DNA of 64,000 nt from Methylacidimicrobium fagopyrum (lineage in GTDB: Bacteria; Verrucomicrobiota; Verrucomicrobiia; Limisphaerales; UBA11358), in the NCBI GenBank assembly GCA_026225255.1, contig JAMFSJ010000043.1, positions 23,597-87,596 on the forward strand, read 5' to 3'. This document shows positions 1,020 to 19,388 of this stretch, in pieces. A program made the translations under genes and the position numbers. The first letter of the stretch is position 1. The number at the start of each line of letters is the position of its first letter. Under the pieces are notes generated by a model. That model was not told where the DNA came from and did not search any database. It worked only from the letters and a program-made list of their open reading frames with translations.

Positions 1020-2084
1020 TTATTTCCGCAACCGATAATCTCGCGGTGAACAGCCGAAGCGTTGCCGGAAACACGTGGCAAAATATTGGCTGGCGTTGAA
1101 ACCGTTTTGGTAGGCGATGTCGGTGATGGAAGTCGCGGGTTCGGCGCGGAGCTGACGCGCGGCGAATTCCAAGCGGCATTGATTAAGATATTCCATCGGG
1201 CCGGTGTTGACGAGTTCGCGGCAATATTTGGAAAACGCGGTCACGCCCATGCCGCAGTGTTCGGCCATGCGGTTGATGGTCCACAATTCGCGGCCGGTCG
1301 CCGGATTGATTTCCACTTCCCGCAAAAATAATTTCACCGTGCGCTGGCGCGAAGTCAGGTCGGAACTTTCGTGCGTTTGTTGTTCGGACAACGCATCGAG
1401 AATGTTCAGCAAAAGTTGATTCAAATGCGTGGCGAGCCGCGAGACGGCGTGCGGTTTGTCCCAAGCTTCCACGGTGCGCGCCAGTTCGCGGAAAGAATGG
1501 ATGATCGCGGGCGTGGCATGCCAGACGGGATTTTCGTTGTGCCGCAATTTTCGCGTCAGTTCAGCAAGATCGTCTTGGGTCAAAATCATCCACGCCGGCC
1601 AGTGCCAGTTCTGATGTGGACGTCGCACGCCGACATCGAGAATCAGCCAATGCAGGCGGCCCGGTCCGATGTTCGGCGCGCCCAGTTTGTGCGGTTGCCA
1701 GGGGCGGGTGATGGTGAATTGCCCGGCGCGCAGGTTGTGTTTTTTTCCATCGGCGGCAAACGCCATCGTGCCGGTTTCGAGAAACATGATTTCAATGCCT
1801 TCGTTGCGATGCGTATCCAGCCCCCAATCCTGCGCGCCGCCGGCGTTCCAAAAACCGATGCTGCTCAAGCCGGACAAAATGTTTTCCGGGACGGGCGTGC
1901 CGGGGTAATGACCTTTGGTGAGCGCGTGAAAAAGAATCTTGCCCGTTTCGATGGCGCGATTTTGTGGTTCGCAACGGTCAATCTCATACTGTGCACTGCG
2001 GGTCTGATACGTCGGCTTGGTGCTCACTGGATGTTCAATATTCTTCGCCGAACGATTTTGCAAGATTTCCTTGGGGAGAATCAT
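1020..2084 (-). CDS. AraC family transcriptional regulator (cupin-like sensor + HTH)
   Basis: C-terminal AraC-type HTH (ITDIAYQNGFNASQYFATCFRQRFGCSPRDYR). ATG 2084 lies 13 bp from the divergent fucosidase ATG; an internal GTG (Val20) is an alternative start. Confidence 0.85.
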   Translation of the reverse strand: MILPKEILQNRSAKNIEHPVSTKPTYQTRSAQYEIDRCEPQNRAIETGKILFHALTKGHYPGTPVPENILSGLSSIGFWNAGGAQDWGLDTHRNEGIEIMFLETGTMAFAADGKKHNLRAGQFTITRPWQPHKLGAPNIGPGRLHWLILDVGVRRPHQNWHWPAWMILTQDDLAELTRKLRHNENPVWHATPAIIHSFRELARTVEAWDKPHAVSRLATHLNQLLLNILDALSEQQTHESSDLTSRQRTVKLFLREVEINPATGRELWTINRMAEHCGMGVTAFSKYCRELVNTGPMEYLNQCRLEFAARQLRAEPATSITDIAYQNGFNASQYFATCFRQRFGCSPRDYRLRK

Positions 2085-2097
2085 TCATTATCGGAAC

Positions 2098-3792: not shown

Positions 3793-3802
3793 TAGTTCCC
3801 CG

Positions 3803-5581: not shown

Positions 5582-5583
5582 CC

Positions 5584-8013: not shown

Positions 8014-8023
8014 ACTTACAATC

Positions 8024-8440
8024 ATGAAACAATTACTTTGTCTCCTTGCCCTCGTTTACTTGACCGGCTGTGCGACGCAACCATCGGCGCAGCAAAATTC
8101 TCCACAACGCTATTGTTGGGTCACCGGTTTGAAACCGGATCAAGCCGCGCACTATGAAGATTTACACGCGCACATTTGGCCGGGCGTAAACAAGATGATC
8201 AAGTCGTGTCACATCCAAAATTTTTCCATCCACGAACGCGAAATCAACGGCCAGTTATATCTCTTCGCGTATCTCGAATACACCGGCACGAACTTTGACG
8301 CCGACATGGCGCGCATGGCCGCGGATCCCGAAACCGTTCACTGGTGGAAAGAAACCGATCCGTGCCAATCGCCGTTGCCCGATGCGGCGGCGAAAGGGAA
8401 AATCTGGTCGGACACCAAAGAAGTTTATTTCCTCAAATGA
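8024..8440 (+). CDS. L-rhamnose mutarotase (RhaM/YiiL) family protein with lipoprotein-type signal
   Basis: The core aligns by eye with E. coli RhaM architecture (HAHIWPGV, NFSIH, LYLFAYLEY, VHWWKETDPCQ, EVYFL). The N-terminus MKQLLCLLALVYLTGC is a signal peptide plus lipobox. Confidence 0.7.
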   Translation: MKQLLCLLALVYLTGCATQPSAQQNSPQRYCWVTGLKPDQAAHYEDLHAHIWPGVNKMIKSCHIQNFSIHEREINGQLYLFAYLEYTGTNFDADMARMAADPETVHWWKETDPCQSPLPDAAAKGKIWSDTKEVYFLK

Positions 8441-9210
8441 ATTTGTTGCTTCAAGATAAAGTAATTTTTCTCACCGGCGGTTCGTGCGGCATCGGTCGGG
8501 ATTGTGCGAAGGCCTACGCAGCTGAAGGGGCGAAAGTGGTCATCGTCGCCCGTGATCCTGACGGCGTTGAAAAAGTCGCCGCCGAACTGGGTGCCGACCA
8601 TCTTGGGATCGTCTGCGATGTGACGCGGGATGCTGAAGTAAAAGCGGCGGTGGAAAAAACCTTGGCGCGCTACGGAAAAATTAACGCCGTGCACAACAAC
8701 GCTGGCATTGCGTCGCCCTCCAAGGCGATTCACGAAACCACCGACGCCGAGTGGGACGCGCTATTTAATGTGAATCTAAAAGGCGTTCTGCACACCACGC
8801 GCCATGCTTATGCCGCGCTGCTCGCGAGCAAAGGTTGCATTCTCAACACCTCCAGCCTCGTCGGCGTGATCGGCCAGGAAATTCACGCCGCTTACACTGC
8901 GACGAAAGGCGGTATGAATGCATTGACCAAATCCATGGCGTTGGATTATGCCAAGCAAGGCATCCGCGTGAACGCCGTTTGTCCCGCTGGCGTGTGGACG
9001 CCCATGCTCCGCGAATGGTGCGGCGAGCAACCTGATCCTGCCTCCATCGAACACTATCTCAACGAAATTCATCCGCTCGGTTATTGCCCGGAAAGCGATG
9101 TCATCGCCGACGCGTGCGTTTTTTTACTCTCGGAAAAAGCGCGCTTCATCACCGGTCACATCATGAACGTCAGCGGCGGCGCGGAACTGGGTTATCGTCG
9201 TAATATTTAA
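8437..9210 (+). CDS. SDR family oxidoreductase (candidate L-fucose dehydrogenase or 2-keto-3-deoxy-L-fuconate dehydrogenase)
   Basis: TGGSCGIGR cofactor motif and YTATKGG (Y-x-x-x-K). ATG 8437 overlaps the upstream stop (ATGA). Confidence 0.85.
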   Translation: MNLLLQDKVIFLTGGSCGIGRDCAKAYAAEGAKVVIVARDPDGVEKVAAELGADHLGIVCDVTRDAEVKAAVEKTLARYGKINAVHNNAGIASPSKAIHETTDAEWDALFNVNLKGVLHTTRHAYAALLASKGCILNTSSLVGVIGQEIHAAYTATKGGMNALTKSMALDYAKQGIRVNAVCPAGVWTPMLREWCGEQPDPASIEHYLNEIHPLGYCPESDVIADACVFLLSEKARFITGHIMNVSGGAELGYRRNI

Positions 9211-9213
9211 TTT

Positions 9214-10437
9214 ATGATTAAAAAAATCTCCACGCGCGATGCGCGGTTTCCGATCGGTCACGGTCACGGCAGCGACGCGATTCACAACGATCCGATCTAT
9301 TCCTACGCCGTCACGGAATTGCACGATGACAAAGGCCGCATTGGGATTGGTCTCGCGTTCACGCTCGGTGAAGGCAACCAACTCGTTTGCGAAGCCGCCC
9401 GTTTCTACGCGCAACGGCTCGTCGGCAAATCCATCGAAGAAATCATGGCGAACTTCGGTGCGTTGCAACATGCGATGGCCGATGAACAACAATTCCGCTG
9501 GCTCGGGCCGCACAAGGGCATCGTGCAACTCGCGCTCGCCTCCGTCACGAATGCCTGCTGGGATTTGTGGGCGAAAACGCGCGGGGTGCCGTTGTGGAAA
9601 TTGTTACTCGACCTCACGCCGGAACAAGTTATCGCCACGCTCGATCTTTCGTATCTCGAAGACGAACTCACTGCGGCGTCGGCGTTGAAAATTGTTCAGG
9701 AACATCAACCGACTCGCAGCGCGCGCGAAGGGATTTTAAAAGCCGGTTATCCCGGTTACGACACGTCCGTTGGTTGGTTCAACTATGACGACGCGCAAGT
9801 CCGTGAAAATTGCAAACGCGCCATTGCCGCTGGTTTCACCGCGATGAAACTCAAAGTCGGCTCGCGCGATGCCGAACGCGATTTGCGCCGCGCACACATC
9901 GTCCGCGAAGTTGCCGGTGACAAAGCCCGCGTGATGGTGGACGCGAATCAGCAATGGACGTTGCCGCAGGCGCTGGACATTTGCCAAAAACTACGCGCGA
10001 TGAATCCATTTTGGATCGAAGAGCCAACGCATCCCGATGATGTGACTGGCCATAAAACCTTGGCCGATGCCATCGCGCCGCTAAAACTCGCACTCGGCGA
10101 ACATGTCCCGAACCGCGTCGTTTTCAAAAATTATCTGCAAGCCAAGTGCGCCGGGTTTATTCAAGTGGATGCCGTGCGCGTCGCGGGCGTGAGCGAATTT
10201 CTTGCGGTCAGTTTGTTGTCGCGTAAGTTTGGCGTTCCGGTTGTGCCACACGTTGGCGACATGGGACAATTGCATCAACATCTTGTGCTGTTCAATCACA
10301 TCGGGCTTGGTCACGACGCCATCTTTCTCGAACACATCCCGCACCTGCGCGAACATTTTATTCATCCGTGCAAAGTCGAAGGCGGTGTCTATCAAACGCC
10401 GCAGGAGATTGGTTCGAGTTGTGATCTGAAACCGTGA
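9214..10437 (+). CDS. fucD: L-fuconate dehydratase (enolase superfamily, mandelate racemase subgroup)
   Basis: Strong by-eye similarity along the whole length to characterised Xanthomonas FucD (QFRWLGPHKG, CWDLWAK, LTPEQV, DANQQW, WIEEPTHPDDV, GEHVPNRVVFK, IQVDAVRVAGVSE). Confidence 0.8.
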   Translation: MIKKISTRDARFPIGHGHGSDAIHNDPIYSYAVTELHDDKGRIGIGLAFTLGEGNQLVCEAARFYAQRLVGKSIEEIMANFGALQHAMADEQQFRWLGPHKGIVQLALASVTNACWDLWAKTRGVPLWKLLLDLTPEQVIATLDLSYLEDELTAASALKIVQEHQPTRSAREGILKAGYPGYDTSVGWFNYDDAQVRENCKRAIAAGFTAMKLKVGSRDAERDLRRAHIVREVAGDKARVMVDANQQWTLPQALDICQKLRAMNPFWIEEPTHPDDVTGHKTLADAIAPLKLALGEHVPNRVVFKNYLQAKCAGFIQVDAVRVAGVSEFLAVSLLSRKFGVPVVPHVGDMGQLHQHLVLFNHIGLGHDAIFLEHIPHLREHFIHPCKVEGGVYQTPQEIGSSCDLKP

Positions 10438-10438
10438 A

Positions 10439-11344
10439 TTACCGGTCAGCCCGGCCCGGCATTTCAGGTTGCTTTCGATAAGTCTGCGGTGATTTGCCGA
10501 AAACTTTGTGGAAGACCAGCCGAAAATGTTCGTCGCTGCGGAAGCCGGCGCGGTGGACGATATGTTTGATGGGCAGCATGGTTTCCTGCAGCAATTTGGC
10601 GGCGCGGGAGACGCGGCAGAATTGAATCTCATCCAACACACTTCGGCCGGTAGCAGCTTTGAAACGCCGGTCCAAGGTTCGTCGAGCGATTTTCACCTTC
10701 TCCGCCACCGCCGGCACGTCCACCGCGTCGTGGCTGTAATTCCAGATGTATTCCACGGCGGTTTTGACCAGTTCATCCGGCAGTCCGCTTTCATTGCTGG
10801 CGGTGCCGACGGGTTGATCCCGCAGAAAATGAGCCAGTAATCCGCCGGCCTGCAGGGAATAATTGGCCGAGTTGGCCGACGGTTGTTGATGGATGCTAGC
10901 GAGCAGATGTTCGAACTGGGCGCGGAATAGTTTTTTATGCTCAATGACCGGGATGTTTTTTTCCAAACGAAAAGCATCGCGATGAAGCCAGTGCAGGGGG
11001 CGGTCGCCATTAAAATGAATCCACATCAGCGTCCAGCCGGTTTTGGTGGAAGGGCGGTGACGATGCCATTCGCCGGGCCGGAATAAAAAAGCATCGCCCG
11101 CGCCGAGGTGCTGGCGATGTTCGCGGGTTTCAAATTCTCCGCTGCCGGCAACATTCAAGGCCAGACAAAATTCCGGGAGCGTCCGGCCTTCCCGCCATTC
11201 AAAATAAAAAATCGGCGCGTCTCGCGTAGGATAGCGTTCACCCGGCAGGATTTTTTCCCAGCCCGCATGCGTCAGATAAAACGGCTCATGGAACAAGGCT
11301 TCATTCACTGGCAGCGCATGGCGGAATGGTTGCGTCAGGCTCAT
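10439..11344 (-). CDS. AraC family transcriptional regulator
   Basis: C-terminal AraC HTH (LPIKHIVHRAGFRSDEHFRLVFHKVFGKSPQTYRK) and an N-terminal cupin-like region. Confidence 0.85.
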   Translation of the reverse strand: MSLTQPFRHALPVNEALFHEPFYLTHAGWEKILPGERYPTRDAPIFYFEWREGRTLPEFCLALNVAGSGEFETREHRQHLGAGDAFLFRPGEWHRHRPSTKTGWTLMWIHFNGDRPLHWLHRDAFRLEKNIPVIEHKKLFRAQFEHLLASIHQQPSANSANYSLQAGGLLAHFLRDQPVGTASNESGLPDELVKTAVEYIWNYSHDAVDVPAVAEKVKIARRTLDRRFKAATGRSVLDEIQFCRVSRAAKLLQETMLPIKHIVHRAGFRSDEHFRLVFHKVFGKSPQTYRKQPEMPGRADR

Positions 11345-11474
11345 TTATAGGGATTAACTGGGTTGGGCAGCAATATAGATACGAATTAGACTGGATTCAA
11401 TGGCTTAAAACTTTGGGTTAATGTCATTGCCCGGCGGCGGCGGACGATGGCTTAATGATTCAAATCCCGTGCCC

Positions 11475-12548
11475 ATGATCTTGAACGATAAACCCGTTAT
11501 GCCGACGATCCGGTTTCCCATCGTCATTTTGGGCGCGGGCGGCATCGTGAAGGACGCGCATCTGCCGGCGTATCGGCTGGCGGGTTTGCCGGTGGACACA
11601 TTGATGAACCGCACGCGGGCACGGGCGGAGGCGCTCGCGGCGGAATATGGCGTCAAAAAAGTTTTTAGCACGGTGGCCGAAGCGATCTCCCACGCGCCGG
11701 CCGATGCCGTTTATGATCTTGCGCTGCCGGCCTCTTTGTTTGCGGATACGCTGCGGCAGCTGCCGGAAGGTGCGCATGTGCTCATCCAAAAACCAATGGG
11801 CGAAACCTTGGCGCAGGCGCGGGAAATTTTGGCGATTTGTCGTGAGAAAAAATTGCACGCCGCCATCAACTGTCAGCTTCGCTACGCGCCGTTTGTCGTG
11901 GCGGCCCGTCAACTCATTGACGCTGGCGTCATCGGCGAATTGACGGATATGGAAATGCGGCTGACGTGTGATACGCCGTGGCATCTGTTTCCGTTTTTGC
12001 AGGGGTTGCCACGCATGGAGATCGTTTATCATAGCGTGCATTATGTGGATTTGATCCGGTCATTTCTGGGTCAACCGGATAAAATTCAGGCGCTGACCTT
12101 GCCGCATCCGAATTTGCCGGGCCTCGCCTCCACGCGCAGCACCATCATCCTGAAATATGCCTCGGGCGTGCGGGCGACGATCACGACGAATCACGACCAT
12201 AACTTCGGCGCGCGCCACCAGGAAAGTTATTTGAAATGGGAAGGCACGCGCGGCGCGATCTGGGCGCGAATCGGTTTGCTGATGGATTATCCGCTCGGCG
12301 CCGGGGACGTGTTTGAATATTGCGTCCGCGAACCTGGCCGTGAACCGGAATGGAAATCCGTTGCGCTCGAAGGCTCATGGTTTCCCGAGGCGTTTGTCGG
12401 CACGATGGCCAGTTTGCAACGGCACAAGGCGGGCAGTGAAAAAATCATGCCCACCTCCGTGGAAGACGTGATCCACACCATGGAATGTGTGGAGGCGGCG
12501 TATCGGGCGAGTGAACACGGCGGTATTTCTCCAAAAACTTTGACGTGA
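11475..12548 (+). CDS. Gfo/Idh/MocA family oxidoreductase
   Basis: N-terminal Rossmann segment IRFPIVILGAGGIVKDAHLPAY, with length and architecture typical of the family. ATG 11475 is preferred to the track start 11421 because it places the Rossmann strand near the N-terminus. Confidence 0.8.
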   Translation: MILNDKPVMPTIRFPIVILGAGGIVKDAHLPAYRLAGLPVDTLMNRTRARAEALAAEYGVKKVFSTVAEAISHAPADAVYDLALPASLFADTLRQLPEGAHVLIQKPMGETLAQAREILAICREKKLHAAINCQLRYAPFVVAARQLIDAGVIGELTDMEMRLTCDTPWHLFPFLQGLPRMEIVYHSVHYVDLIRSFLGQPDKIQALTLPHPNLPGLASTRSTIILKYASGVRATITTNHDHNFGARHQESYLKWEGTRGAIWARIGLLMDYPLGAGDVFEYCVREPGREPEWKSVALEGSWFPEAFVGTMASLQRHKAGSEKIMPTSVEDVIHTMECVEAAYRASEHGGISPKTLT

Positions 12549-13711
12549 TGAAAACGAAAACAATTTTGCGCGGCATCACCTGGAACCACACGCGCGGTTT
12601 TTTGCCGATGGTGGCGACCGCCCAACGTTTTTCGGAAATCCACCCGGATGTGGAAATCATCTGGGAAAAACGTTCGCTCCAGGAATTTGCCGACGCGCCG
12701 ATCGTTAATTTAATTGAAAAATATGACCTGCTCGTGATTGATCATCCGTGGGCCGGCTACGGCGCGGCGCACGGCGCCTTGCTGCCGCTGGAAAGAAAAT
12801 CGCCGCCGCATTTTATCGCCGATCAACAGCGCCACCAAGTCGGGCCGTCGCACGATAGTTACACGTTTGACGGGGTGCAGACGGCGTTTGCGATTGATGC
12901 GGCCACGCCGGTTGCCTCGTGGCGGGAAGATTTATTAAATGCCACGCCGCCCAAAAACTGGGATGAAGTTTTGACGCTCGCGCGGAATAAAAAAGTTTTA
13001 TTCGCCGGCATTCCGATTGATTCGTTGATGAATTTTTACATGTTGTGCGGGGCGCTTGGCGAAGAACCGTTCCGGCAAAAGGAAACCGTGGTCACGCGCG
13101 AAGTTGGCCGCCGTGCGCTGGCGCATTTGCGTGAACTCGCCGCGCTTTGTTCGCCGCGCATGTTTTCGATGAATCCGATCGCCGTTTACGAAGCGTTGTC
13201 GCGGACGGATGATTTTGTTTATTGCCCGTTCGCATATGGCTATTCGAATTATTCGCGTGCCGGTTACAGTCGAAAACTGCTGACGTTTGGCGATGTGCCG
13301 GTCTTCCGCGAACACCGGCTCCGCAGCACGCTGGGTGGAACCGGCTTGGCGATCTCGGCCAAGACGTTGCATCCCGAAATCGCAATTGCCTACGCCGAAT
13401 TTGTCGCCGGCGCGGAAATTCAGAAAACTATTTACACCACTGCCGGTGGGCAGCCGGGACATCGCGCCGCGTGGTTGGACGCGGAAAATAACCGGCTGAC
13501 GAATAATTATTTTACCCGCACCTTGCCCGCGCTGGACAACGCGTATCTGCGCCCGCGTTACAATGGCTATCTGCATTTTCAAGATCACGCGGGCGATGGC
13601 GTGCGCGCCTTCATGATGGGCGAGGCGGCGGCGGATGCGGTGTTGGAAAAAATGGATTCACTTTACGCCGAATCACTCGCGATTTCCCACGCTAAAATTT
13701 CCCGGGAATAA
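12548..13711 (+). CDS. Solute-binding-protein-like protein without signal peptide (function unknown)
   Basis: The sequence style is that of periplasmic-binding-protein type 2 folds ([23 protein letters not shown]...[12 protein letters not shown]...[10 protein letters not shown]), but there is no hydrophobic leader. ATG overlaps the upstream stop (TGATG). The family assignment is tentative. Confidence 0.5.
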
Positions 13712-13716
13712 TATTT

Positions 13717-14160
13717 ATGTTCATCACGCAATTTTTTGAAGACTACGCTGTCGGCTATGTGCGGGAAACTTTGGGTCGCACGATCACGGAGACGGACATT
13801 GTCGTCCACGCCGGCCAGACGGGCGATTTTTACCCGCATCACATGGATGCCGAATGGTGCAAGACGCAAGAGTTCAAGCAACGTATCGCGCACGGCACGT
13901 TGATCTTCAGCGTCGCGGTTGGCATGACGGCGGGCGCGATCAATCCCGAGGCGTTTTCCTACGGCTATGACCGCTTGCGTTTCATCAAGCCCGTTTTTAT
14001 TGGCGATACCATCCGCGTTCGCGTGACGATCAAGGAAAAGCACGACCACAAAAAACCAACGCATGGCGTGGTCAGCGAGTTGGTGGAAGTCTTCAATCAA
14101 CACAATGAAACCGTGCTTGCGTGCGAGCATTTATTGCTCGTGCGCCGGAAAAATTTATGA
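13717..14160 (+). CDS. MaoC-like (hot-dog fold) dehydratase/hydratase subunit
   Basis: 147 aa. Segments [28 protein letters not shown] and [15 protein letters not shown] are typical of MaoC/R-hydratase hot-dog proteins. Confidence 0.8.
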
Positions 14161-15302
14161 AGCCACTTGAAGGATTATTAGTTCTGGATTTCAGTCAGTT
14201 TCTCGCCGGGCCCAGTGCGGCGATGCGGCTGGCCGATTTGGGCGCGCGCGTGATTAAAATCGAACGCCCCGGCGGCGGCGACATTTGCCGTCAACTTTAC
14301 ATCTCCAATTCGAAGCTGGATGGCGACAGCACCTTGTTTCACTCCATCAATCGGAACAAACAAAGTTTCGCCGCCGACTTGAAAGATCCCGCTGATCTGG
14401 CGCGGGTAAAAAAACTCGTCGCGCAAGCCGATGTGCTGATCCAAAACTTCCGCCCCGGCGTGATGAAACGCATCGGCCTCGACTACGAGGAAGTTGCCAA
14501 AATCAATCCGCGTCTCGTTTATGGCATCGTCACCGGCTACGGCACCAGCGGGCCGTGGGTGGATTTACCGGGCCAGGATTTGCTCGCCCAAAGCCGCAGC
14601 GGGCTCGTGTGGTTGAGCGGCGATGCGGATCGTCCGCCCACGCCGATGGGCCTCGCCGTGTGCGATCTCGCGGCCAGCGCGCATCTGGTCCAAGGCATTC
14701 TCGCCTGTCTGTTGCGCCGCGCGACCACGGGGCAGGGCGGTAAGATTGAAGTCAGTTTGCTTGAATCCATTTTGGATCTGCAATTTGAACTCACAACCAC
14801 GTTTCTCAATGACGGCGGAAAATTGCCGCAACGCAGCACGATCAATAACGGCCACGCTTATCTCGGTGCGCCCTACGGAATTTACGCAACGGCCAACGGC
14901 TTTCTCGCGCTGGCGATGGGCTCAGTCGTGCGGCTTGGTGAATTGTTGGAAATGCCCGCGCTGGCAACCTTTGCCAATCCCGATTCATGGTTTTCGCAGC
15001 GCGATGAAATCAAGGCATTGCTCCGCGAGCATCTGAAGACCCAACCCACCCAACACTGGCTGGATCGCTTGGTGCCGGCCGATTATTGGTGCGCCGAAGT
15101 TTTGAACTGGCAGGAGCTTTTTAAACACGCGGCCTTCGCCGAATTGGATTGGGTCATGGAAGTCCAACGCGAGGACGGACCGGTGATGAAAACCACCCGT
15201 TGCCCGATCACCATTGACGGCGCGCGTTACAAATCCCGGCTCGGGGCGCCGCGGGTCGGCCAGCACAACGAACAAATCACCCAGGAATTTGGCCTCGCCT
15301 GA
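14157..15302 (+). CDS. Family III CoA-transferase (CaiB/BaiF/Frc family)
   Basis: N-terminal signature [39 protein letters not shown] 14157 overlaps the upstream stop (ATGA). Confidence 0.85.
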
Positions 15303-15317
15303 ATCCGCCATCGTAAC

Positions 15318-15839
15318 ATGAAAAATCCCAATCCTGATCCCGCCAAGCACAAGGAGATTCCCATCTGGAACGCCGAGAATTGGTTTTATGAAGACATCGT
15401 CATCGGCAAAAAATTGCGCTCCATCCGTCGCACGTTATCCGAAGGCGAGAGCATGCAGTTCAATGCGCTCGTGCTGGACATGCACCCGTATGTCGCCGAT
15501 GAAATTTTCGCGAAGACCGAAGGCGTTTTTGGTAAACGATTGATCGCGGGCGCGATGGTTTTCAGCGTTGGCCTCGGGTTGGTCGCCACCAATTGCGTGA
15601 ATGCGTTCAGTTATGGCTACGATAAACTGCGTTTCATTAAACCGGTTTTCATCGGCGATACGCTTTACACCATTAAAACTGATTTGGAAAAAGCACCAAA
15701 ATATAAAGAGATGGGCTTGTATCGCGCCAGCTACGAGATTTTTAAAAACGATGGTGAACTGGTGCTCTACTGCGAGCATTTGCAAACGGTGAAATATCGC
15801 AACCCCGCCGCGTTTGCGGATCAAATTGGAAAACCATGA
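15318..15839 (+). CDS. MaoC-like (hot-dog fold) dehydratase/hydratase subunit, second copy
   Basis: 173 aa. It is paralogous to 13717-14160 ([15 protein letters not shown] versus [15 protein letters not shown]; [13 protein letters not shown] versus [13 protein letters not shown]). Confidence 0.8.
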
Positions 15840-16900
15840 TCGCTCCCAACCCGCTCCTCGGCACCGGCCTGCACGCCATCGGCGCAATGTTCGCTGCCCT
15901 GTGCTACACACCGCAACGCCGGGTCGTCCGCTGGTCGTGGCAATCCTACTGGCTCGTGCAAGCGCTGTTCTGCTGGTTGCTGCTGCCGGTTTTGGGAGCA
16001 TGGCTGACGATTCCTGAATTGGCCACGGTGTTGCGCGAAGCCCCGCACGCCGCGATGTGGCAATCCTTTTTACTTGGCGCCGCCTATGGCATCGGCGGAA
16101 CCGCCTTCGGCATTGCCATTCGCTACATTGGCTTTTCACTGACCTATGCGATCGCCATCGGGCTTTCCACCGTGCTGGGCACCTTGATCCCGCCGCTCGT
16201 GAAAGGAACCCTGGCTACGACCTTGGCGGGGCCGGGCGCGCAGTGGGTGATCGGCGGCATTGCCATTGGCGTGGTCGGCATCGCTTTTTCCGGCGTCGCT
16301 GGCCGGATGAAGGAACGCGACCTGAACACGTCGGCGCAACTCGCCGGATTTTCGCTGATGAAAGGACTATTGCTCTCGCTGCTCGCCGGCGTGCTTTCGG
16401 CGGTTTACGGCTTCGCGCTGGAAGCCGGCGCACCGATTGCCAATGTCGCTTCCGCTCACGGCGCGGGCGTCTTCAGCGGTAACGTGGTTTATATTTTCTC
16501 CAACACCGGCGCTTTTTTAAGCACGGCGATTTATTGTCTCTGGCTGCATCGCAAACATAAAACGCTCGGTGAAATCATCGGTTTGCCTGCCGGCACCGAA
16601 CGTGCCCGCCTGCCCGTGAATTGGGCGATGGCGGTGCTGACCGGTTGCCTGTGGTATGGTCAGTTTTTTTTCTATAACCTCGGCCACGTGCGCATGGGCA
16701 ATTATCAATTCGTCAGTTGGGCGATTCACATGCTCATGCTCATCTTGTTCAGTATCATCGTCGGCGTGTGGCTGCATGAATGGCGGAATTCGCGTCCGGC
16801 GACCAAGACCGTGCTTGGGCTCGCGTTCGTCGTGCTGGCAGGTGCGATTCTGGCGCTGACTTATGGCAACCATCTCGCGGAAATAAAACCTACCTCGTGA
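15836..16900 (+). CDS. RhaT-family sugar:proton symporter (L-rhamnose/6-deoxyhexose type)
   Basis: 10-TM protein. The N-terminal region aligns by eye with E. coli RhaT ([27 protein letters not shown] versus [27 protein letters not shown]). ATG overlaps the upstream stop (ATGA). Confidence 0.75.
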
Positions 16901-16903: not shown

Positions 16904-17740
16904 ATGCGACTCATTGATACGCATCAACATCTTTGGGATCTGGCGCAATTTCCTTATTCGTGGTGCGCCGGCATTCCCGCGCTCAACCGCAGTTTTTCGC
17001 TGGACGATTATCGCGCCGCCGCCGCGGGCACTGGCATCGAAAAAACCATCTTCGTGGAATGTGATGTGGATGAACCGCACATTCTCGCCGAGGCGCAACA
17101 CATCCAAAAGTTGGCCGACCAAAATCCGCTCATCGCTGGCATCGTCGCCGGTGGCCGCCCGGAAAAAACAGGTTTTCCCGCGCACTTGGAAAAGTTATTG
17201 GCATTACCAAAACTGCGTGGCGTGCGGCGCGTCTTACACGTCGTGCCGGACGAGATTTCACAAAGCACGTTGTTCGCGGAAAATATTCGGCGGCTCGCGG
17301 AACACCGGCTCACGTTTGACCTGTGCGTGCTCGCGCGACAATTGCCACTCGCCGCGGCGCTGGTCAAAAAATGTCCCGACGTCCAATTCATCCTGGATCA
17401 CTGCGGCGTGCCGGACGTGAAAGGCCACGCCTTCGATCCGTGGCGGACGGAGCTGAAGGAACTCGCCGCGTTGCCAAATGTCGCCTGTAAAATCAGCGGG
17501 TTGATCGCTTATGCCGATGCGGAAAAATGGACGGCAGAAAATCTGCGGCCCTGGGTGGAGCACGCGATTGAATGCTTCGGCTGGGATCGCGTTCTCTGGG
17601 GCGGCGATTGGCCGGTTTGCAATCTGACGGCGTCACTCGGGCAATGGGTGGCGACGACCCATAAAATATTTCTCGGCGCAAAAAATCTCGAACGGGAAGC
17701 GTTGTTTTGTAATAATGCCGAGAGGATTTATCATGTTTAG
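16904..17740 (+). CDS. Amidohydrolase-2 family protein (candidate L-fucono-1,5-lactonase)
   Basis: The MRLIDTHQHLWD start is typical of the amidohydrolase_2 family. The size (278 aa) and the context next to fucose-pathway genes match the characterised Burkholderia L-fuconolactonase type. Confidence 0.7.
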   Translation: MRLIDTHQHLWDLAQFPYSWCAGIPALNRSFSLDDYRAAAAGTGIEKTIFVECDVDEPHILAEAQHIQKLADQNPLIAGIVAGGRPEKTGFPAHLEKLLALPKLRGVRRVLHVVPDEISQSTLFAENIRRLAEHRLTFDLCVLARQLPLAAALVKKCPDVQFILDHCGVPDVKGHAFDPWRTELKELAALPNVACKISGLIAYADAEKWTAENLRPWVEHAIECFGWDRVLWGGDWPVCNLTASLGQWVATTHKIFLGAKNLEREALFCNNAERIYHV

Positions 17741-18473
17741 CCTCAAAAATAAAACCGCCCTCGTCACCGGCGGAGCCTCGGGCATCGGCGCGGCGATTGC
17801 GGAAACATTCGCGCAAGCCGGCGCAACGGTTTGGGTCGCCGATCGCAATGAAAAAGATGGTCGCGCCTTCGCCGAGCGTATCGGCGGTAAATTTATTTCC
17901 ATTGATGTCGCGAGTGAAGCTGATTGCGAAAAAGCGGCGCAAACGGTCGGCGCGCTGGATATTTTGGCGAACGTTGCGGGCATTGGCCACGTTGGCACAC
18001 TGCTCAACACAACCGCGGTTGATCTGGATAAACTTTACGCCGTGAACGTGCGCGGCATTTTCAATTGCTGCAAGGCCTTTGCGCCCGCGATGCTGGAACG
18101 CAAATACGGCAGCGTCATCAACATGGCGTCCATCGGCGGTATCGTGGCGGTGCGTGAGCGGCTCGCTTACACGACCACGAAATTTGCCGTCGTCGGTTTG
18201 ACCAAGGCGCTCGCGCTCGATCATTCGCACACCGGCGTGCGGTTTAATTGCATCTGCCCCGGCCGCGTTGAAACCCCGTTCGTCATGGCGCGTTTGAATG
18301 AATATCCTGATCCGCAAGCCGCGTATCGCGACATGGCTTCGACGCAATTGAATGGTCGCATGGCCAAGCCGGAAGAGATCGCCGCCTCCGCGTTATATCT
18401 CGCGGCAGACGAAAGTGCGATGGTCACCGGTAGTTCGCTGATGATTGATGGCGGCTGGAGCGCGGGGAAATAA
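17733..18473 (+). CDS. SDR family oxidoreductase (second dehydrogenase of the fucose route)
   Basis: [12 protein letters not shown] cofactor motif and YTTTKFA catalytic motif. ATG 17733 overlaps the upstream gene by 8 nt. Confidence 0.85.
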   Translation: MFSLKNKTALVTGGASGIGAAIAETFAQAGATVWVADRNEKDGRAFAERIGGKFISIDVASEADCEKAAQTVGALDILANVAGIGHVGTLLNTTAVDLDKLYAVNVRGIFNCCKAFAPAMLERKYGSVINMASIGGIVAVRERLAYTTTKFAVVGLTKALALDHSHTGVRFNCICPGRVETPFVMARLNEYPDPQAAYRDMASTQLNGRMAKPEEIAASALYLAADESAMVTGSSLMIDGGWSAGK

Positions 18474-18476
18474 AGC

Positions 18477-18584: not shown

Positions 18585-19388
18585 ATGAAAATTATTCGTT
18601 ATCAAGACAAGCAAGGTTCCGTGGGATATGCCGCGCAACAAGCCGACGGCTCGGCATTGAAACTTACGGGCGATATTTATGGTTCGCCCAAACTTACGAC
18701 GGAAAAAGCCGATGTCGCCAAGTTGCTCGCGCCCGTCCAGCCGAGTTCCATCATCTGTATCGGCCTGAACTACCGCAAGCATGCCGAGGAAACCAATGCG
18801 AAGTTTCCCGAAGTGCCGATCGTTTTTTTCAAAGGCATCAACACCTTGCAAAATCCCGGCGATGCCATTGAGATTCCCACGCACATGCGCAGCGATGAAG
18901 TGGATTATGAATGCGAACTCGCCGTCGTCATCGGTCGCGCTTGCAAAAACGCCACGCGCCAAAACGCATTGAGTTATGTGCTCGGCTACATGTGCGCCAA
19001 CGACGTCAGCGCGCGCGATTGGCAGATCAAACGCGGCGGCGGCCAATGGTGTCGCGGCAAAAGCTTCGATACGTTCAGCCCGCTCGGCCCGGCATTGGTG
19101 ACGACGGATGAAATTCCTAATCCCAATACGTTAAAGATCCGCACTGTTTTGAACGGCGAAGTGATGCAAGATTGGAACACGAACGACATGATCTTCGACA
19201 TCCCGACGTTGATCGAATTTCTGAGCGGTAGCACCACGCTCTTGCCTGGCACGGTCATTTTGACCGGCACCCCGCACGGCGTCGGCATGGCGCAAAAGCC
19301 CCAACGCTGGTTGAAACCCGGCGACAGCGTGACGATTGAGATCGAGAAGATTGGCGCGTTGATCAATCCGGTTGTGAACGAAATTTGA
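18585..19388 (+). CDS. Fumarylacetoacetate hydrolase (FAH) family protein (candidate 2,4-diketo-3-deoxy-L-fuconate hydrolase)
   Basis: FAH-fold segments DYECELAVVIGR, GKSFDTFSPLGP and LPGTVILTGTPHGVG. Confidence 0.8.
   Translation: MKIIRYQDKQGSVGYAAQQADGSALKLTGDIYGSPKLTTEKADVAKLLAPVQPSSIICIGLNYRKHAEETNAKFPEVPIVFFKGINTLQNPGDAIEIPTHMRSDEVDYECELAVVIGRACKNATRQNALSYVLGYMCANDVSARDWQIKRGGGQWCRGKSFDTFSPLGPALVTTDEIPNPNTLKIRTVLNGEVMQDWNTNDMIFDIPTLIEFLSGSTTLLPGTVILTGTPHGVGMAQKPQRWLKPGDSVTIEIEKIGALINPVVNEI

What the first reader, a model, noticed from the sequence alone, without database searches (positions are those of the whole stretch)
11421..15839. Unexplained five-gene CoA-transferase / paired MaoC / cytoplasmic SBP-like / Gfo-Idh-MocA module nested inside a complete L-fucose locus
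The surrounding genes already supply every step of the established non-phosphorylative L-fucose route: mutarotase, SDR dehydrogenase, amidohydrolase-type lactonase, FucD dehydratase, second SDR, and a FAH-family hydrolase giving pyruvate plus L-lactate. They also supply GH29/GH95 fucosidases and two permeases. Five same-strand, tightly packed genes sit between fucD/AraC and the RhaT-type permease, with start/stop overlaps at 12545-12548, 14157-14160 and 15836-15839. None of them is required by that route. They are a Gfo/Idh/MocA oxidoreductase, a solute-binding-protein-like protein with no signal peptide, and a family III CoA-transferase flanked by two small paralogous MaoC hot-dog proteins (a likely heteromeric hydratase). 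To my knowledge CoA-thioester chemistry is not part of described 6-deoxyhexose catabolism. The module could further process a pathway intermediate or the C3 product, or handle another glycan-derived acid.
Basis: partly seen in the sequence, partly recalled or inferred. Interest (0 to 1): 0.6.

Follow-up and report, generated by a model that had tools for sequence, protein, structure and literature searches.

The report
CoA-dependent side branch of fucose breakdown
Five genes inside a fucose-utilisation locus form a widespread, undescribed unit that probably dehydrates a fucose-type sugar acid as a CoA thioester, possibly letting bacteria use methyl-blocked fucose.

Summary
Five tightly coupled + strand genes at 11421-15839 encode a Gfo/Idh/MocA oxidoreductase, a leaderless MalE-fold protein (SBPL), a family III CoA-transferase and two MaoC paralogues.

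They are the 5' part of an operon that continues with a RhaT permease, lactonase, SDR and FAH hydrolase. FucD lies in a separate upstream operon with its own AraC regulator.

The unit is not a local oddity. In 86 loci, CoA-transferase is nearby in 78, MaoC1 in 74 and the oxidoreductase in 67.

Neighbours are repeatedly fucose-type, in about ten lineages of five phyla: FucD, fucose dehydrogenase, FAH, rhaM, and fucosidase families GH29, GH95, GH141 and GH139. Sinorhizobium meliloti pSymB carries it too, and the function-unassigned PDB entry 4FFU is its MaoC1 orthologue.

Best reading, inferred and not shown: a CoA-thioester-dependent dehydration branch. It converts a fuconate-type acid that FucD cannot handle into 2-keto-3-deoxy-L-fuconate. 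The leading candidate substrate is 2-O-methyl-L-fucose, because four Hymenobacteraceae loci place the unit directly after a GH139 2-O-methyl-fucosidase.

The exact substrate and the SBPL role remain open. Ten full-text searches found no description.

The parts
10439..11344 (-). AraC-family regulator (AraC2), divergent from the module operon. It is the likely sensor of the module's sugar.
   Evidence: Pfam HTH_18, AraC_binding and Cupin_2. About 130 nt separate its start codon from the probable GFO start. A second, different AraC (1020-2084, - strand) heads the upstream fucosidase/FucD operon.
11421..12548 (+). Gfo/Idh/MocA oxidoreductase (GFO). The probable start is ATG 11475 (357 aa). Inferred to be the sugar 1-dehydrogenase of the branch.
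   Evidence: Pfam. No NCBIfam equivalog is reached. The best PDB matches are weak: 1,5-anhydro-D-fructose reductase at E 9e-15. Orthologues 45-60% identical occur in 52 of 86 loci. It is the only dehydrogenase in the self-contained Chloroflexota operon.
12545..13711 (+). SBPL: a leaderless, cytoplasmic MalE-fold (CUT1 SBP-like) protein. It is the signature component, paired with the CoA-transferase. Its role is unknown.
   Evidence: Pfam SBP_bac_8. AF2 model with pLDDT 93.7. Foldseek TM about 0.8 to MalE-type sugar SBPs at 14-18% identity, with no enzyme among the top 50 matches. It is 57-65% identical across phyla, with about 85 invariant residues in 42 sequences. The family has 514 50%-identity clusters, no leader peptides and no fusions. 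A CoA-transferase gene is adjacent or overlapping in most loci.
13717..14160 (+). MaoC1: (R)-hydratase-type hot-dog protein, the catalytic subunit of the acyl-CoA dehydratase.
   Evidence: Pfam MaoC. The motif GDFxPHHMD (Asp and His) is kept in at least 90% of 71 orthologues. About 70% identical to PDB 4ffu, which is the S. meliloti pSymB orthologue, 142/143 identical. The best NCBIfam hit is the PaaZ hydratase domain.
14157..15302 (+). Family III CoA-transferase (CoAT).
   Evidence: Pfam CoA_transf_3, E 2.4e-100. The catalytic-Asp motif PGQDLL is invariant in 107 of 107 homologues. NCBIfam subfamily models are all far below cutoff. Nearest PDB entries are formyl-CoA transferase, YfdE and SUGCT. 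It is 69% identical to the single CoAT of Chloroflexota and Terriglobia loci. Bacteroidota carry two paralogues.
15318..15839 (+). MaoC2: a MaoC paralogue lacking the canonical catalytic His. Probably the non-catalytic partner of MaoC1.
   Evidence: 39% identical to MaoC1. The motif reads LDMHPYVAD where MaoC1 has GDFYPHHMD. Orthologues 63-75% identical occur in 34 loci, and at 71-75% in alphaproteobacterial loci.
15836..16900 (+). RhaT-family sugar/H+ symporter, start overlapping the MaoC2 stop. The likely importer for the branch's sugar.
   Evidence: Pfam RhaT, E 4e-53. NCBIfam score 297 against a cutoff of 468. RhaT orthologues follow or precede the module in Pontibacter, Rufibacter, Persicobacter and Lacibacter.
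16904..17740 (+). Amidohydro_2 lactonase (fuconolactonase-like), same operon.
   Evidence: Pfam. NCBIfam FuconLaconase 144 bits, cutoff 400. PDB 4dlf at E 3e-22. It is 49-53% identical to the lactonase next to SBPL in alphaproteobacterial loci.
17733..18473 (+). SDR2, inferred 2-keto-3-deoxy-L-fuconate 4-dehydrogenase, same operon.
   Evidence: Pfam adh_short. The start follows the public gene call. It is 39-41% identical to the SDR between MaoC1 and FAH in alphaproteobacterial loci. The function is inferred from position only.
18585..19388 (+). FAH-family hydrolase, inferred 2,4-diketo-3-deoxy-L-fuconate/rhamnonate hydrolase. It follows a 111-nt gap containing hairpins.
   Evidence: Pfam FAA_hydrolase, E 2.7e-74. 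NCBIfam DhyDRhmHlse 211 bits, cutoff 500. It is the only FAH match to the window in a tblastn that covered the whole window.
2017..10437 (+). Upstream operon 1: GH29, SSF permease, GH95, rhaM mutarotase (8024-8440), SDR1 (8437-9210) and FucD (9214-10437). This is the plain-fucose upper pathway, which lacks its own lactonase, 4-dehydrogenase and hydrolase.
   Evidence: Pfam. FucD scores 349-369 bits to solved L-fuconate dehydratases. SDR1 scores 175 bits to the L-fucose dehydrogenase model, cutoff 300. rhaM and SDR1 share an ATGA overlap.

Best explanation
The five genes are the distinctive part of a second, parallel upper branch of the oxidative (non-phosphorylative) L-fucose pathway.

Proposed sequence, all steps inferred:
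1. A fucose-type sugar enters through RhaT.
2. The Gfo/Idh/MocA enzyme oxidises it at C1.
3. The lactonase opens the lactone.
4. The family III CoA-transferase converts the acid to its CoA thioester, working with the leaderless SBP-like protein.
5. The thioester acidifies C2-H. This lets the MaoC1/MaoC2 hot-dog dehydratase remove the 3-OH.
6. CoA is passed from the product to the next substrate molecule, as in a CaiB/CaiD-type cycle.
7. The released 2-keto-3-deoxy-L-fuconate goes to the SDR and FAH hydrolase of the same operon, giving pyruvate and L-lactate.

The module therefore fills the dehydratase slot for an acid that the enolase-type FucD of the neighbouring operon cannot handle.

The leading candidate substrate is 2-O-methyl-L-fucose. 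In that case dehydration gives a 2-methoxy-enoyl-CoA (an enol ether). Hydrolysis of this ether would release methanol and the same keto acid. This extra step might be carried out by SBPL or MaoC2.

What is shown: gene content, coupling, catalytic motifs, conservation and neighbourhoods. What is inferred: every reaction step, the substrate and the SBPL role.
For: 1. Anatomy. GFO, SBPL, MaoC1, CoAT, MaoC2, RhaT, lactonase, SDR and FAH form one tightly packed string after a divergent AraC gene. FucD sits in another operon behind a different AraC. tblastn with FAH and lactonase queries against the whole window hit only these copies. The rest of the window is housekeeping.

2. Catalytic competence. 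The CoAT Asp motif is invariant in 107 of 107 homologues. The MaoC1 Asp/His motif is conserved.

3. The unit is conserved with its own mutarotase, dehydrogenase and lactonase.
   - Chloroflexota operon: ABC transporter, rhaM, MaoC2, CoAT, lactonase, GFO, IclR, MaoC1, SBPL.

4. Some loci look complete only if the module supplies the dehydration step.
   - Flavobacterium: L-fucose dehydrogenase (357 bits, above the 300 cutoff), lactonase, Zn-ADH, FAH and the module. No enolase-type dehydratase lies within 10 kb.
   - Persicobacter is similar.

5. The same combination as in the window recurs in Alphaproteobacteria, including S. meliloti pSymB: module, rhaM, lactonase, SDR, FAH and FucD.

6. A fucosidase-family gene lies within the fetched flank in 23 of about 86 loci, about ten lineages in five phyla.

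7. Evidence for 2-O-methyl-fucose. In Pontibacter (two species), Botryobacter and Rufibacter the unit directly follows SusC/SusD and a GH139.
   - That GH139 scores 901 bits against PDB 9hyq. The Gln-Asn pair and the Trp residues aligned with Q411/N412, W403 and W683 are kept.
   - From that residue pattern I infer 9hyq is BT0984; the paper does not say which of its two entries is which.
   - 2-O-methyl-alpha-L-fucosidase is the family's only demonstrated activity (PMC12282258).

8. The CoA-cycle logic is supported by a CaiC-like acyl-CoA ligase next to the unit in Alicyclobacillus. It is also supported by variants in which a crotonase replaces MaoC.
Against: - No experiment exists. The substrate is inferred from neighbours only.
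- GH139 adjacency is confined to one bacterial family.
- The soil homologue characterised in the GH139 paper was inactive on all substrates tested.
- In Pedobacter the flanking glycosidases are GH78 and GH106 rhamnosidases and GH2.
- In one Paenibacillus-type operon the unit is fused to apiose-like RuBisCO-like-protein and kinase genes.
- About one third of full-flank loci (22 of 66) show no fucose marker within 10 kb.
- From memory only: the S. meliloti cluster has a transporter re-annotated for plain L-fucose. If so, plain fucose may be the substrate.
- MaoC-type hydration normally attacks C3, not C2, so hydrolysis of a 2-alkoxy enol ether needs an activity no family member is known to have.
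- SBPL shows no structural match to any enzyme among its top 50 PDB matches.
- An aldonyl-CoA with free 4- and 5-hydroxyls should lactonise readily (chemical reasoning). That makes the intermediate questionable unless it is channelled.
Confidence: 0.4

Rival explanations
1. Same CoA-dependent dehydration chemistry, but the substrate is plain L-fuconate. The module would be an alternative, non-homologous L-fuconate dehydratase system. It would be redundant with FucD where both occur and the sole dehydratase where FucD is absent.
For: Flavobacterium and Persicobacter loci have a fucose dehydrogenase, lactonase, 4-dehydrogenase candidates, FAH and the module, with no enolase-type dehydratase nearby. 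GH29, GH95 and GH141 fucosidases for unmethylated fucose are the commonest glycosidase neighbours. From memory only, the S. meliloti cluster containing the unit has its ABC transporter assigned to L-fucose by RB-TnSeq.
Against: FucD and the module coexist in one locus in Verrucomicrobiota, Chloroflexota, Terriglobia and Alphaproteobacteria. A 4-6-protein system replacing one well-adapted enzyme is unparsimonious. Two sugar dehydrogenases and two AraC regulators in the window suggest two inducers. GH139-only PULs deliver methylated fucose, not plain fucose.
Confidence: 0.2
2. The branch handles another 6-deoxy-L-hexose, for example L-rhamnose or a C2/C3 epimer such as 6-deoxy-L-talose. Dehydration and 4-oxidation erase the stereocentres that differ, so the product would converge with the fucose route at the 2,4-diketo acid.
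For: A RhaT-family permease and an rhaM-family mutarotase belong to the unit. GH78 and GH106 rhamnosidases flank it in Pedobacter and Rufibacter. The FAH protein's best NCBIfam model is the 2,4-didehydro-3-deoxy-L-rhamnonate hydrolase. The CaiB/BaiF superfamily also contains acyl-CoA racemases, so a second CoAT paralogue could be an epimerase.
Against: No rhamnose-specific enzyme reaches an equivalog cutoff. rhaM- and RhaT-type proteins also serve fucose loci, including operon 1 here. Rhamnosidases are one of several rhamnogalacturonan-II enzyme families in those PULs. An extra MR_MLE dehydratase that could serve rhamnonate already sits in many loci.
Confidence: 0.12
3. The substrate is a 3-O-substituted fucose. 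One example is the disaccharide 2-O-methyl-D-xylose-alpha-1,3-L-fucose left over from rhamnogalacturonan-II; 3-O-methyl or 3-O-sulfo fucose are others. After oxidation and CoA activation, MaoC would perform a beta-elimination that expels the 3-O substituent. This would be a non-hydrolytic glycoside or ether cleavage.
For: Elimination of a C3 leaving group after C2-H abstraction is exactly MaoC chemistry (established knowledge). GH141 fused to a mutarotase domain sits beside the unit in 11 Flavobacterium loci and one Flavisolibacter locus. From memory, GH141 releases that disaccharide and Bacteroides thetaiotaomicron cannot cleave it. SBPL and the second SBP-like protein have an oligosaccharide-binding fold.
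Against: The Hymenobacteraceae PULs contain GH139, not GH141. RhaT permeases are monosaccharide carriers. No gene for handling the released xylose derivative is evident. The Chloroflexota and Verrucomicrobiota contexts are not rhamnogalacturonan-II-like.
Confidence: 0.08
4. The unit degrades a branched acidic rhamnogalacturonan-II sugar such as L-aceric acid. After C1 oxidation this would be a hydroxylated dicarboxylate, handled like itaconate or mesaconate by a family III CoA-transferase plus a MaoC hydratase.
For: The nearest characterised relatives of CoAT and MaoC act on dicarboxylates: succinate-glutarate, oxalate, mesaconate, and itaconyl- or mesaconyl-CoA. The unit sits in rhamnogalacturonan-II-type PULs. 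In Paenibacillus-type operons it is fused with apiose-like genes for a branched sugar. An FAH enzyme could serve as acetylpyruvate hydrolase.
Against: It does not explain the association with FucD, GH29, GH95 or fucose dehydrogenase, nor the marine sponge-type Chloroflexota and Persicobacter loci, where rhamnogalacturonan-II is not expected. I did not see a GH127 aceric-acid hydrolase among the annotated neighbours. The plain-fucose operon in the window would be left without a lactonase, 4-dehydrogenase or hydrolase.
Confidence: 0.07
5. SBPL is simply the binding protein of an ABC importer, and the CoA genes are an unrelated organic-acid pathway (itaconate, mesaconate or carnitine type) that happens to lie in the locus.
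For: Public annotation calls SBPL an 'ABC transporter substrate-binding protein' and calls CoAT 'CaiB/BaiF'.
Against: SBPL has no signal peptide or lipobox across 514 clusters. None of the window genes I annotated is an ABC permease. Bacteroidota loci have none either. Loci that do have an ABC importer carry a separate SBP with a leader peptide. All subfamily models score far below cutoff, and no lyase partner was found. Linkage with sugar genes holds across five phyla.
Confidence: 0.03

Closest known systems
Oxidative non-phosphorylative L-fucose pathway. From memory: Xanthomonas campestris XCC4065-4070 and Burkholderia multivorans BmulJ_04915-04922. Steps: mutarotase, L-fucose dehydrogenase, L-fucono-1,5-lactonase, FucD, KDF 4-dehydrogenase, FAH hydrolase.
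   Same: The window encodes homologues of every one of these steps. The module's operon shares the lactonase, SDR and FAH.
   Different: The described route has no CoA thioesters, no MaoC proteins and no SBP-like protein. Here a Gfo/Idh/MocA enzyme and a CoA-transferase/MaoC/SBPL set form a second upper branch.
Carnitine CaiB/CaiD/CaiC system. A family III CoA-transferase recycles CoA from dehydrated product to fresh substrate, a hydratase acts on the thioester, and a ligase primes the cycle. Established knowledge, from memory.
   Same: There is a family III transferase plus an enoyl-CoA hydratase/dehydratase. A CaiC-like ligase lies beside the unit in Alicyclobacillus. Variants with a crotonase in place of MaoC exist.
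   Different: CoAT scores 86 bits against the CaiB cutoff of 413. The dehydratase here is MaoC, not crotonase. The context is sugar genes. SBPL is an obligatory neighbour.
Itaconate and mesaconate systems: Ict/Ich/Ccl, RipABC, succinyl-CoA:mesaconate CoA-transferase and mesaconyl-CoA hydratase.
   Same: A family III CoA-transferase works next to MaoC hydratases. Weak Pfam MC_hydratase and NCBIfam RipB/Ich hits are present.
   Different: Scores are 185 against a cutoff of 700 (mesaconate transferase) and 61 against 340 (RipB/Ich). No CitE/HpcH lyase was found among the annotated neighbours.
PaaZ C-terminal MaoC domain (oxepin-CoA hydrolase).
   Same: It is the best NCBIfam and a top PDB relative of both MaoC proteins. 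From memory, it is a precedent for a MaoC domain hydrolysing an enol ether conjugated to a thioester.
   Different: The window proteins are stand-alone and carry no aldehyde dehydrogenase domain. In PaaZ the ether oxygen is on C3, not C2.
Heteromeric MaoC dehydratases with one catalytic and one structural subunit (HadAB/HadBC, ChsH1-ChsH2; from memory).
   Same: There are two small paralogues. Only one has the Asp/His motif. HadB gives weak hits.
   Different: The substrate class differs. Physical association of MaoC1 and MaoC2 is untested.
CUT1 (MalE-type) solute-binding proteins, and the few enzymes built on that fold (thiaminase I, MqnA, cyclohexadienyl dehydratase; from memory).
   Same: SBPL has the MalE fold, TM about 0.8. 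Its conserved motifs fall on loops that are topologically equivalent to MalE's ligand-contacting loops (inference).
   Different: There is no leader peptide and no permease partner. SBPL is conserved at enzyme-like levels, 57-65% across phyla. Its gene is coupled to a CoA-transferase gene.

Membership tests
Family III CoA-transferase (CaiB/BaiF, Pfam PF02515) | Full-length CoA_transf_3 domain | tested here: met
   E 2.4e-100, profile positions 1-366 of 366.
Family III CoA-transferase (CaiB/BaiF, Pfam PF02515) | Catalytic Asp in the conserved loop | tested here: met
   PGQDLL is invariant in 107 of 107 homologues. The Asp is D141 of the window protein. Its equivalence to Frc Asp169 comes from memory.
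Characterised CoA-transferase subfamilies (succinate-glutarate, oxalate YfdE, formyl-CoA Frc, succinyl-CoA:mesaconate, CaiB) | Score at or above the NCBIfam equivalog cutoff | tested here: not met
   Scores against cutoffs: 212 vs 750, 197 vs 522, 179 vs 504, 185 vs 700, 86 vs 413.
MaoC (R)-specific enoyl-CoA hydratase/dehydratase | Hot-dog MaoC domain with the Asp...His hydratase motif | tested here: met
   Applies to MaoC1. Pfam E 6.9e-24. GDFxPHHMD is conserved in at least 90% of 71 orthologues.
MaoC (R)-specific enoyl-CoA hydratase/dehydratase | The same motif in the second paralogue (MaoC2) | tested here: not met
   MaoC2 reads LDMHPYVAD. The Asp is kept but the canonical His is Val, and this holds across 34 orthologues. 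The domain itself is present.
Itaconyl-CoA hydratase RipB/Ich and the itaconate pathway | Equivalog score, plus a CitE/HpcH-type (citramalyl-CoA) lyase partner | tested here: not met
   MaoC1 scores 61 and MaoC2 27 against a cutoff of 340. No lyase appeared among the neighbour families annotated. Not every neighbour was annotated.
Gfo/Idh/MocA oxidoreductases | N-terminal Rossmann domain plus the C-terminal alpha/beta domain | tested here: met
   PF01408, PF22725 and PF02894. Substrate-specific equivalogs (IolG, xylose, levoglucosan and others) are all far below cutoff.
ABC-transporter solute-binding protein (CUT1) | Type II periplasmic-binding-protein fold | tested here: met
   Pfam SBP_bac_8. 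Foldseek TM 0.8 to MalE-type SBPs.
ABC-transporter solute-binding protein (CUT1) | Export signal (signal peptide or lipobox) and cognate permease/ATPase genes | tested here: not met
   There is no leader: the mature fold starts at residue 6, and the same holds across the family. No ABC permease was found among the window genes annotated. Loci with an importer have a separate SBP that carries a leader.
L-fuconate dehydratase (FucD, enolase superfamily), for the neighbouring gene 9214-10437 | Full-length similarity to characterised FucD | tested here: met
   349 bits to X. campestris FucD (2hne, 2hxt, 1yey) and 369 bits to human ENOSF1. Members of its 90% cluster are named L-fuconate dehydratase by JGI. 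Catalytic residues were not inspected.
CaiB/CaiD-type CoA-cycle dehydration system | CoA is transferred from the dehydrated product back to fresh substrate | not testable with these tools
   Only circumstantial evidence exists: a neighbouring CaiC-like ligase in one locus and crotonase variants.

The most novel reading that the evidence does not exclude
The unit is an oxygen- and cofactor-independent way to remove a 2-O-methyl ether from a sugar. The steps would be: oxidise 2-O-methyl-L-fucose to the acid, make the CoA thioester, and dehydrate it with MaoC1/MaoC2 to a 2-methoxy-enoyl-CoA. The enol ether is then hydrolysed to methanol plus 2-keto-3-deoxy-L-fuconate. The leaderless MalE-fold protein would be a new enzyme, or an obligatory substrate-handling subunit of a family III CoA-transferase. 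More broadly, CoAT + SBPL + hydratase (MaoC or crotonase) would define a previously unrecognised class of CoA-dependent aldonate dehydratase systems, spread over at least five phyla.
Probability: 0.3. Interest if true: 0.85.

Novelty: new variant of a known kind. Interest (0 to 1): 0.72.

Why it matters
- It would add thioester chemistry to sugar-acid catabolism, where only metal-dependent dehydratases are described.
- It would give a function to a large family of 'ABC substrate-binding proteins' that are not exported: 514 50%-identity clusters.
- The same would apply to their paired 'CaiB/BaiF' transferases, which I recall (not verified here) being read as carnitine genes in metagenomes.
- It would assign a function to PDB 4FFU.
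- It could explain how soil, rhizosphere and aquatic bacteria use methyl-blocked fucose from rhamnogalacturonan-II and other glycans. None of ten full-text searches returned a catabolic route for that sugar.
- The unit is present in Sinorhizobium meliloti and in culturable Flavobacterium, Pedobacter and Paenibacillus, so the question can be tested directly.

Tried and rejected
1. Rejected because alpha-hydroxyacyl-CoA dehydration needs radical enzymes, not MaoC (established knowledge). Elsewhere the unit also travels with upper-pathway genes, not lower-pathway genes.

2. Itaconate, mesaconate, oxalate or carnitine membership. Rejected on NCBIfam cutoffs and the absence of a lyase.

3. SBPL as a transporter component. 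Rejected.

4. A fold search of SBPL for an enzyme relative. The top 50 matches are sugar-binding proteins or maltose-binding-protein fusion constructs, so this gave no mechanistic lead.

5. A search for SBPL fusions with CoAT or MaoC as evidence of physical coupling. None appeared among the 150 best representatives.

6. Clustering of CoAT sequences to assign the window enzyme to one of the two Bacteroidota paralogues. This was inconclusive: 53-58% identity to both.

7. Ten full-text literature searches, covering:
   - fucose with CoA-transferase and MaoC;
   - aldonyl-CoA names;
   - fuconate with CoA-transferase;
   - aceric acid catabolism;
   - CaiB;
   - GH139;
   - 2-O-methyl-fucose;
   - sugar acid with lactonase and enoyl-CoA hydratase.
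   No description of the unit was found. One further query failed on syntax.

8. A look for S. meliloti fitness data in the GapMind paper, its supplements and the 2016 preprint. Nothing was found. The Nature 2018 paper is not held.

9. Promoter and terminator scans gave counts equal to shuffled expectation, so they were not used.

Full report

Yes. The five + strand ORFs are present at 11421-15839.
- Gfo/Idh/MocA, N- and C-terminal domains.
- SBP_bac_8.
- MaoC.
- CoA_transf_3 over its full length, E 2.4e-100.
- MaoC again.

The three 4-nt start/stop overlaps are in the sequence. The MaoC proteins are 39% identical paralogues.

The SBP-like protein (SBPL) starts directly with the first beta-strand of the fold. 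GC content is the same as the flanks.

The neighbours are as described:
- AraC, GH29, SSF permease, GH95, rhaM, SDR and an MR_MLE protein lie upstream.
- That MR_MLE protein scores 349-369 bits over its full length against solved L-fuconate dehydratases.
- RhaT, an Amidohydro_2 lactonase, a second SDR and an FAH hydrolase lie downstream.

The rest of the window (20-64 kb) is housekeeping: fatty-acid synthesis, a tRNA synthetase, LpxD, RND efflux, Amt and similar.

**2. Operon anatomy changes the picture.**

The module is not an insert between two halves of a fucose operon. There are two strings, each behind its own divergent AraC regulator.
- String 1 is GH29, SSF, GH95, rhaM, SDR1 and FucD. 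rhaM and SDR1 share an ATGA overlap.
- String 2 is GFO, SBPL, MaoC1, CoAT, MaoC2, RhaT, lactonase, SDR2 and FAH. Its junctions are overlaps or gaps of 3-15 nt, except for 111 nt before FAH.

tblastn with lactonase and FAH queries against the whole window hit only the string 2 copies. Within string 2, the CoAT/MaoC/SBPL genes occupy the place a sugar-acid dehydratase would take. GFO occupies the place of the sugar 1-dehydrogenase.

**3. The proteins.**

- **CoAT.** It keeps the catalytic-Asp motif PGQDLL, invariant in 107 of 107 homologues. It is far below every characterised-subfamily cutoff. Its nearest solved relatives are formyl-CoA transferase, YfdE and SUGCT.
- **MaoC1.** It keeps the Asp/His hydratase motif (GDFxPHHMD) in at least 90% of 71 orthologues.
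- **MaoC2.** It has Val at the His position, yet its orthologues are 63-75% identical to it. This pattern fits a catalytic plus structural heteromer.
- **GFO.** It has only weak similarity to any characterised member.
- **SBPL.** It folds confidently (pLDDT 93.7) into a MalE-type sugar-binding fold. TM is about 0.8 at 14-18% identity, and no enzyme is among the top 50 matches. It is 57-65% identical between Verrucomicrobiota, Firmicutes, Chloroflexota and Bacteroidota, with about 85 invariant positions in 42 sequences. That is as conserved as the catalytic proteins of the unit.
- **SBPL family.** It has 514 50%-identity clusters at E <= 1e-30. Nearly all listed members are 375-400 aa, and about nine in ten begin their match within the first ten residues. 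So the family is leaderless as a whole.

**4. The unit is widespread and travels as a unit.**

I examined 86 non-redundant loci with up to 10 kb on each side. The number of loci with each neighbour was:

| Neighbour | Loci (of 86) |
|---|---|
| CoAT | 78 |
| MaoC1 | 74 |
| GFO homologue (>=30% identity) | 67 |
| GFO homologue at >=45% identity | 52 |
| Amidohydro_2 lactonase | 34 |
| MaoC2 | 34 |
| rhaM | 25 |

SBPL and CoAT are usually adjacent or overlapping. The pair persists even in distant (34-42% identical) alphaproteobacterial versions.

Three architectures recur:
- **(a) Chloroflexota, Verrucomicrobiota, Terriglobia and Alphaproteobacteria.** One CoAT and two MaoC proteins. The loci often also hold rhaM, a lactonase, an IclR regulator and an ABC importer. 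That importer's own SBP has a signal peptide.
- **(b) Bacteroidota and some Paenibacillus.** Two CoAT paralogues, about 50% identical to each other. One MaoC. A second, unrelated leaderless SBP-like protein.
- **(c) Crotonase variants.** A crotonase replaces MaoC in Variovorax and a Cellvibrionaceae genome.

**5. What the neighbours say.**

The recurrent theme is fucose.

- A fucosidase-family gene lies in the fetched flank of 23 of about 86 loci. These are GH29 (Anaerolineae, Chloroflexia, Terriglobia, Persicobacter), GH95, GH141 fused to a mutarotase domain (11 Flavobacterium loci and one Flavisolibacter), and GH139.
- FucD orthologues 59-65% identical lie beside the unit in five Chloroflexota and Terriglobia loci.
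- In Flavobacterium the divergent operon encodes an SDR that passes the L-fucose dehydrogenase equivalog cutoff (357 against 300). It also encodes a lactonase, a Zn-ADH and an FAH hydrolase. No enolase-type dehydratase lies within 10 kb.
- In Alphaproteobacteria the unit is embedded with an ABC importer, an MR_MLE protein, rhaM, an SDR, FAH and a PGAP-named L-fuconate dehydratase. These are Pararhizobium, Roseibium, Martelella and S. meliloti pSymB.
- Ten gene families are thus shared with the window. Identities range from 38-43% (SBPL) to 71-75% (MaoC2).
- PDB 4FFU, deposited as 'oxidase', is the S. meliloti MaoC1 orthologue: 142/143 identical to strain ml28 and about 70% to the window protein.

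Overall, 21 of 66 full-flank loci carry a strict fucose marker, and 44 of 66 when rhaM and the lactonase are counted.

The remainder sit mostly in rhamnogalacturonan-II-type contexts:
- Pedobacter PULs with GH78, GH106 and GH2.
- Paenibacillus-type operons where the unit is fused to OiaX/OiaK-like apiose-type genes, which score below their equivalog cutoffs.

**6. The most specific clue.**

In Pontibacter (two species), Botryobacter and Rufibacter a compact PUL has this gene order: IclR, SusC, SusD, GH139, SBPL, CoAT, CoAT2, SBP-like 2, GFO, MaoC, RhaT. Rufibacter adds O-acetyl esterases.

The GH139 scores 901 bits against PDB 9hyq. It keeps the Gln-Asn pair and the Trp residues aligned with Q411/N412, W403 and W683. 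From that residue pattern I infer that 9hyq is BT0984; the paper deposits 9HYQ and 9HMB without saying which is which.

The only activity demonstrated for GH139 is exo 2-O-methyl-alpha-L-fucosidase, and the enzyme requires the methyl group (PMC12282258). In these bacteria, therefore, the sugar handed to the cytoplasmic unit is most likely 2-O-methyl-L-fucose.

**7. Proposed mechanism (inference).**

1. Sugar goes to lactone (GFO).
2. Lactone goes to acid (lactonase, or spontaneously).
3. Acid goes to acyl-CoA (CoAT, with SBPL).
4. MaoC1/MaoC2 removes C2-H and 3-OH.
5. The 2-keto-3-deoxy acid is released by CoA transfer to the next substrate molecule.
6. SDR2 and FAH give pyruvate plus L-lactate.

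A thioester makes C2-H acidic without needing the metal-chelated 2-hydroxyl that, as I recall, enolase-type dehydratases use. This is a rationale for a separate system when O2 is methylated.

With a 2-O-methyl group the dehydration product is an enol ether. Its hydrolysis would yield methanol and the ordinary intermediate KDF. That explains why the branch shares the lower pathway with plain fucose. It also explains why two regulators and two sugar dehydrogenases exist.

SBPL (and MaoC2, or the second CoAT and second SBP-like protein in Bacteroidota) would supply the extra step or hold the labile polyhydroxy-acyl-CoA. This part is the least supported.

A CaiC-like acyl-CoA ligase next to the unit in Alicyclobacillus and the crotonase variants fit a CaiB/CaiD/CaiC-like CoA cycle.

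**8. Rivals.**

- Plain L-fuconate as substrate, making the unit a non-homologous dehydratase. This is favoured by loci without FucD. It is disfavoured by frequent coexistence with FucD and by the GH139 PULs.
- L-rhamnose or an epimeric 6-deoxyhexose, suggested by RhaT, rhaM and the GH78/GH106 neighbours.
- Beta-elimination of a 3-O substituent, for example from the MeXyl-alpha-1,3-Fuc disaccharide. The chemistry is attractive and there is a GH141 link.
- Aceric acid or another branched dicarboxylate. This is favoured by the relatives' dicarboxylate specificities and by the Paenibacillus apiose-type fusion.
- The default database reading (transporter SBP plus carnitine-type transferase). This one is rejected.

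I cannot decide among the first four without experiments.

From memory, and not verified with the tools: the S. meliloti cluster is SM_b21101-21113, and RB-TnSeq re-annotated its ABC transporter for L-fucose. That keeps the plain-fucose rival alive.

**9. Comparison with what is known, and novelty.**

The pathway frame (oxidative fucose route) and the enzyme pair (family III CoA-transferase plus hydratase) are each known. Their combination on a sugar acid, and the leaderless MalE-fold partner, are not described in any of the ten full-text searches I could run.

I therefore rate it a new variant of a known kind. There is a realistic chance (about 0.3) that it is a new ether-cleaving strategy and a new enzyme or subunit class.

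**10. Limits.**

- Neighbourhoods were sampled only to +/-10-15 kb. Most loci are the 80 closest SBPL relatives, and 11 of them are closely related Flavobacterium species.
- Not every neighbour gene was annotated.
- No expression or biochemical data exist.

Noticed in passing
window 18474-18584: The 111-nt gap between SDR2 and the FAH gene contains two short inverted repeats, GCTGCCGACAttttGTCGGTC and CTGCCAACAgaaTGTTGGCAG. It is the only sizeable gap in the nine-gene string, and could be an internal attenuator or a processing site.
   Followed up: no
L052, L062, L063, L065, L066, L072, L073, L076, L078, L080, L081 (for example L078:1089-3599): Flavobacterium GH141 proteins carry a C-terminal L-rhamnose-mutarotase (rhaM) domain. 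A glycosidase-mutarotase fusion implies that the released reducing-end deoxy-sugar is handed on as a defined anomer.
   Followed up: partly
L091:12794-21164 (Martelella plasmid pMM593): A second, SBPL-less cluster lies next to the unit: aldose 1-epimerase, SDR, CoA transferase, crotonase-type enoyl-CoA hydratase, ABC importer and a 381-aa FAH protein. This hints that CoA-dependent sugar-acid routes exist for other sugars too.
   Followed up: no
L093:8784-13126 (Variovorax) and L075:9995-15774 (Cellvibrionaceae): Variants of the CoAT-SBPL pair are followed by a crotonase (ECH_1) instead of MaoC. Downstream comes an FAH hydrolase (Variovorax) or an aldehyde dehydrogenase (Cellvibrionaceae). This is a non-homologous replacement of the hydratase.
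   Followed up: partly
L094:8133-9126 (S. meliloti ml28 pSymB): The FAH gene of the fucose cluster appears split over two reading frames in this strain and is absent from the gene table, so it may be a frameshift or pseudogene. In S. meliloti the CoAT-SBPL pair is separated from the rest of the cluster by a roughly 9-kb insertion and lacks MaoC2. In strain ml21 an IS21-family element follows it (L086).
   Followed up: no
PDB 4ffu versus window 13717-14160: The deposited molecule name 'oxidase' for 4FFU is misleading. It is a MaoC hot-dog protein from the S. meliloti fucose cluster.
   Followed up: yes
L085:3276-15169, L001, L006, L007, L010, L014: A Paenibacillus-type operon fuses the SBPL-CoAT-MaoC unit with other genes: a 436-aa Gfo/Idh/MocA protein, a carbohydrate esterase, an Asp/Glu-racemase-like protein, an OiaX-like RuBisCO-like protein (465 bits, cutoff 700) and an OiaK-like kinase (447 bits, cutoff 700). 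This may be a distinct branched-sugar pathway.
   Followed up: partly
window 31780-34867: An aromatic amino-acid ammonia-lyase (HAL/PAL family) gene is followed by an FAD-dependent halogenase/monooxygenase-like gene. The pair is unrelated to the fucose locus.
   Followed up: no
window 25349-27560 and 61214-62446: A 339-aa ORF with no Pfam match lies next to a DUF4185 protein. Elsewhere there is a 410-aa ORF with no Pfam match.
   Followed up: no
L033:11488-16091, L048: In Anaerolineae loci the unit is followed by a UxaA/GarD-type (altronate/galactarate) dehydratase, a GH29 fucosidase, FucD and an RraA-like class II aldolase. This suggests an aldolase-type lower pathway there instead of SDR plus FAH.
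   Followed up: no
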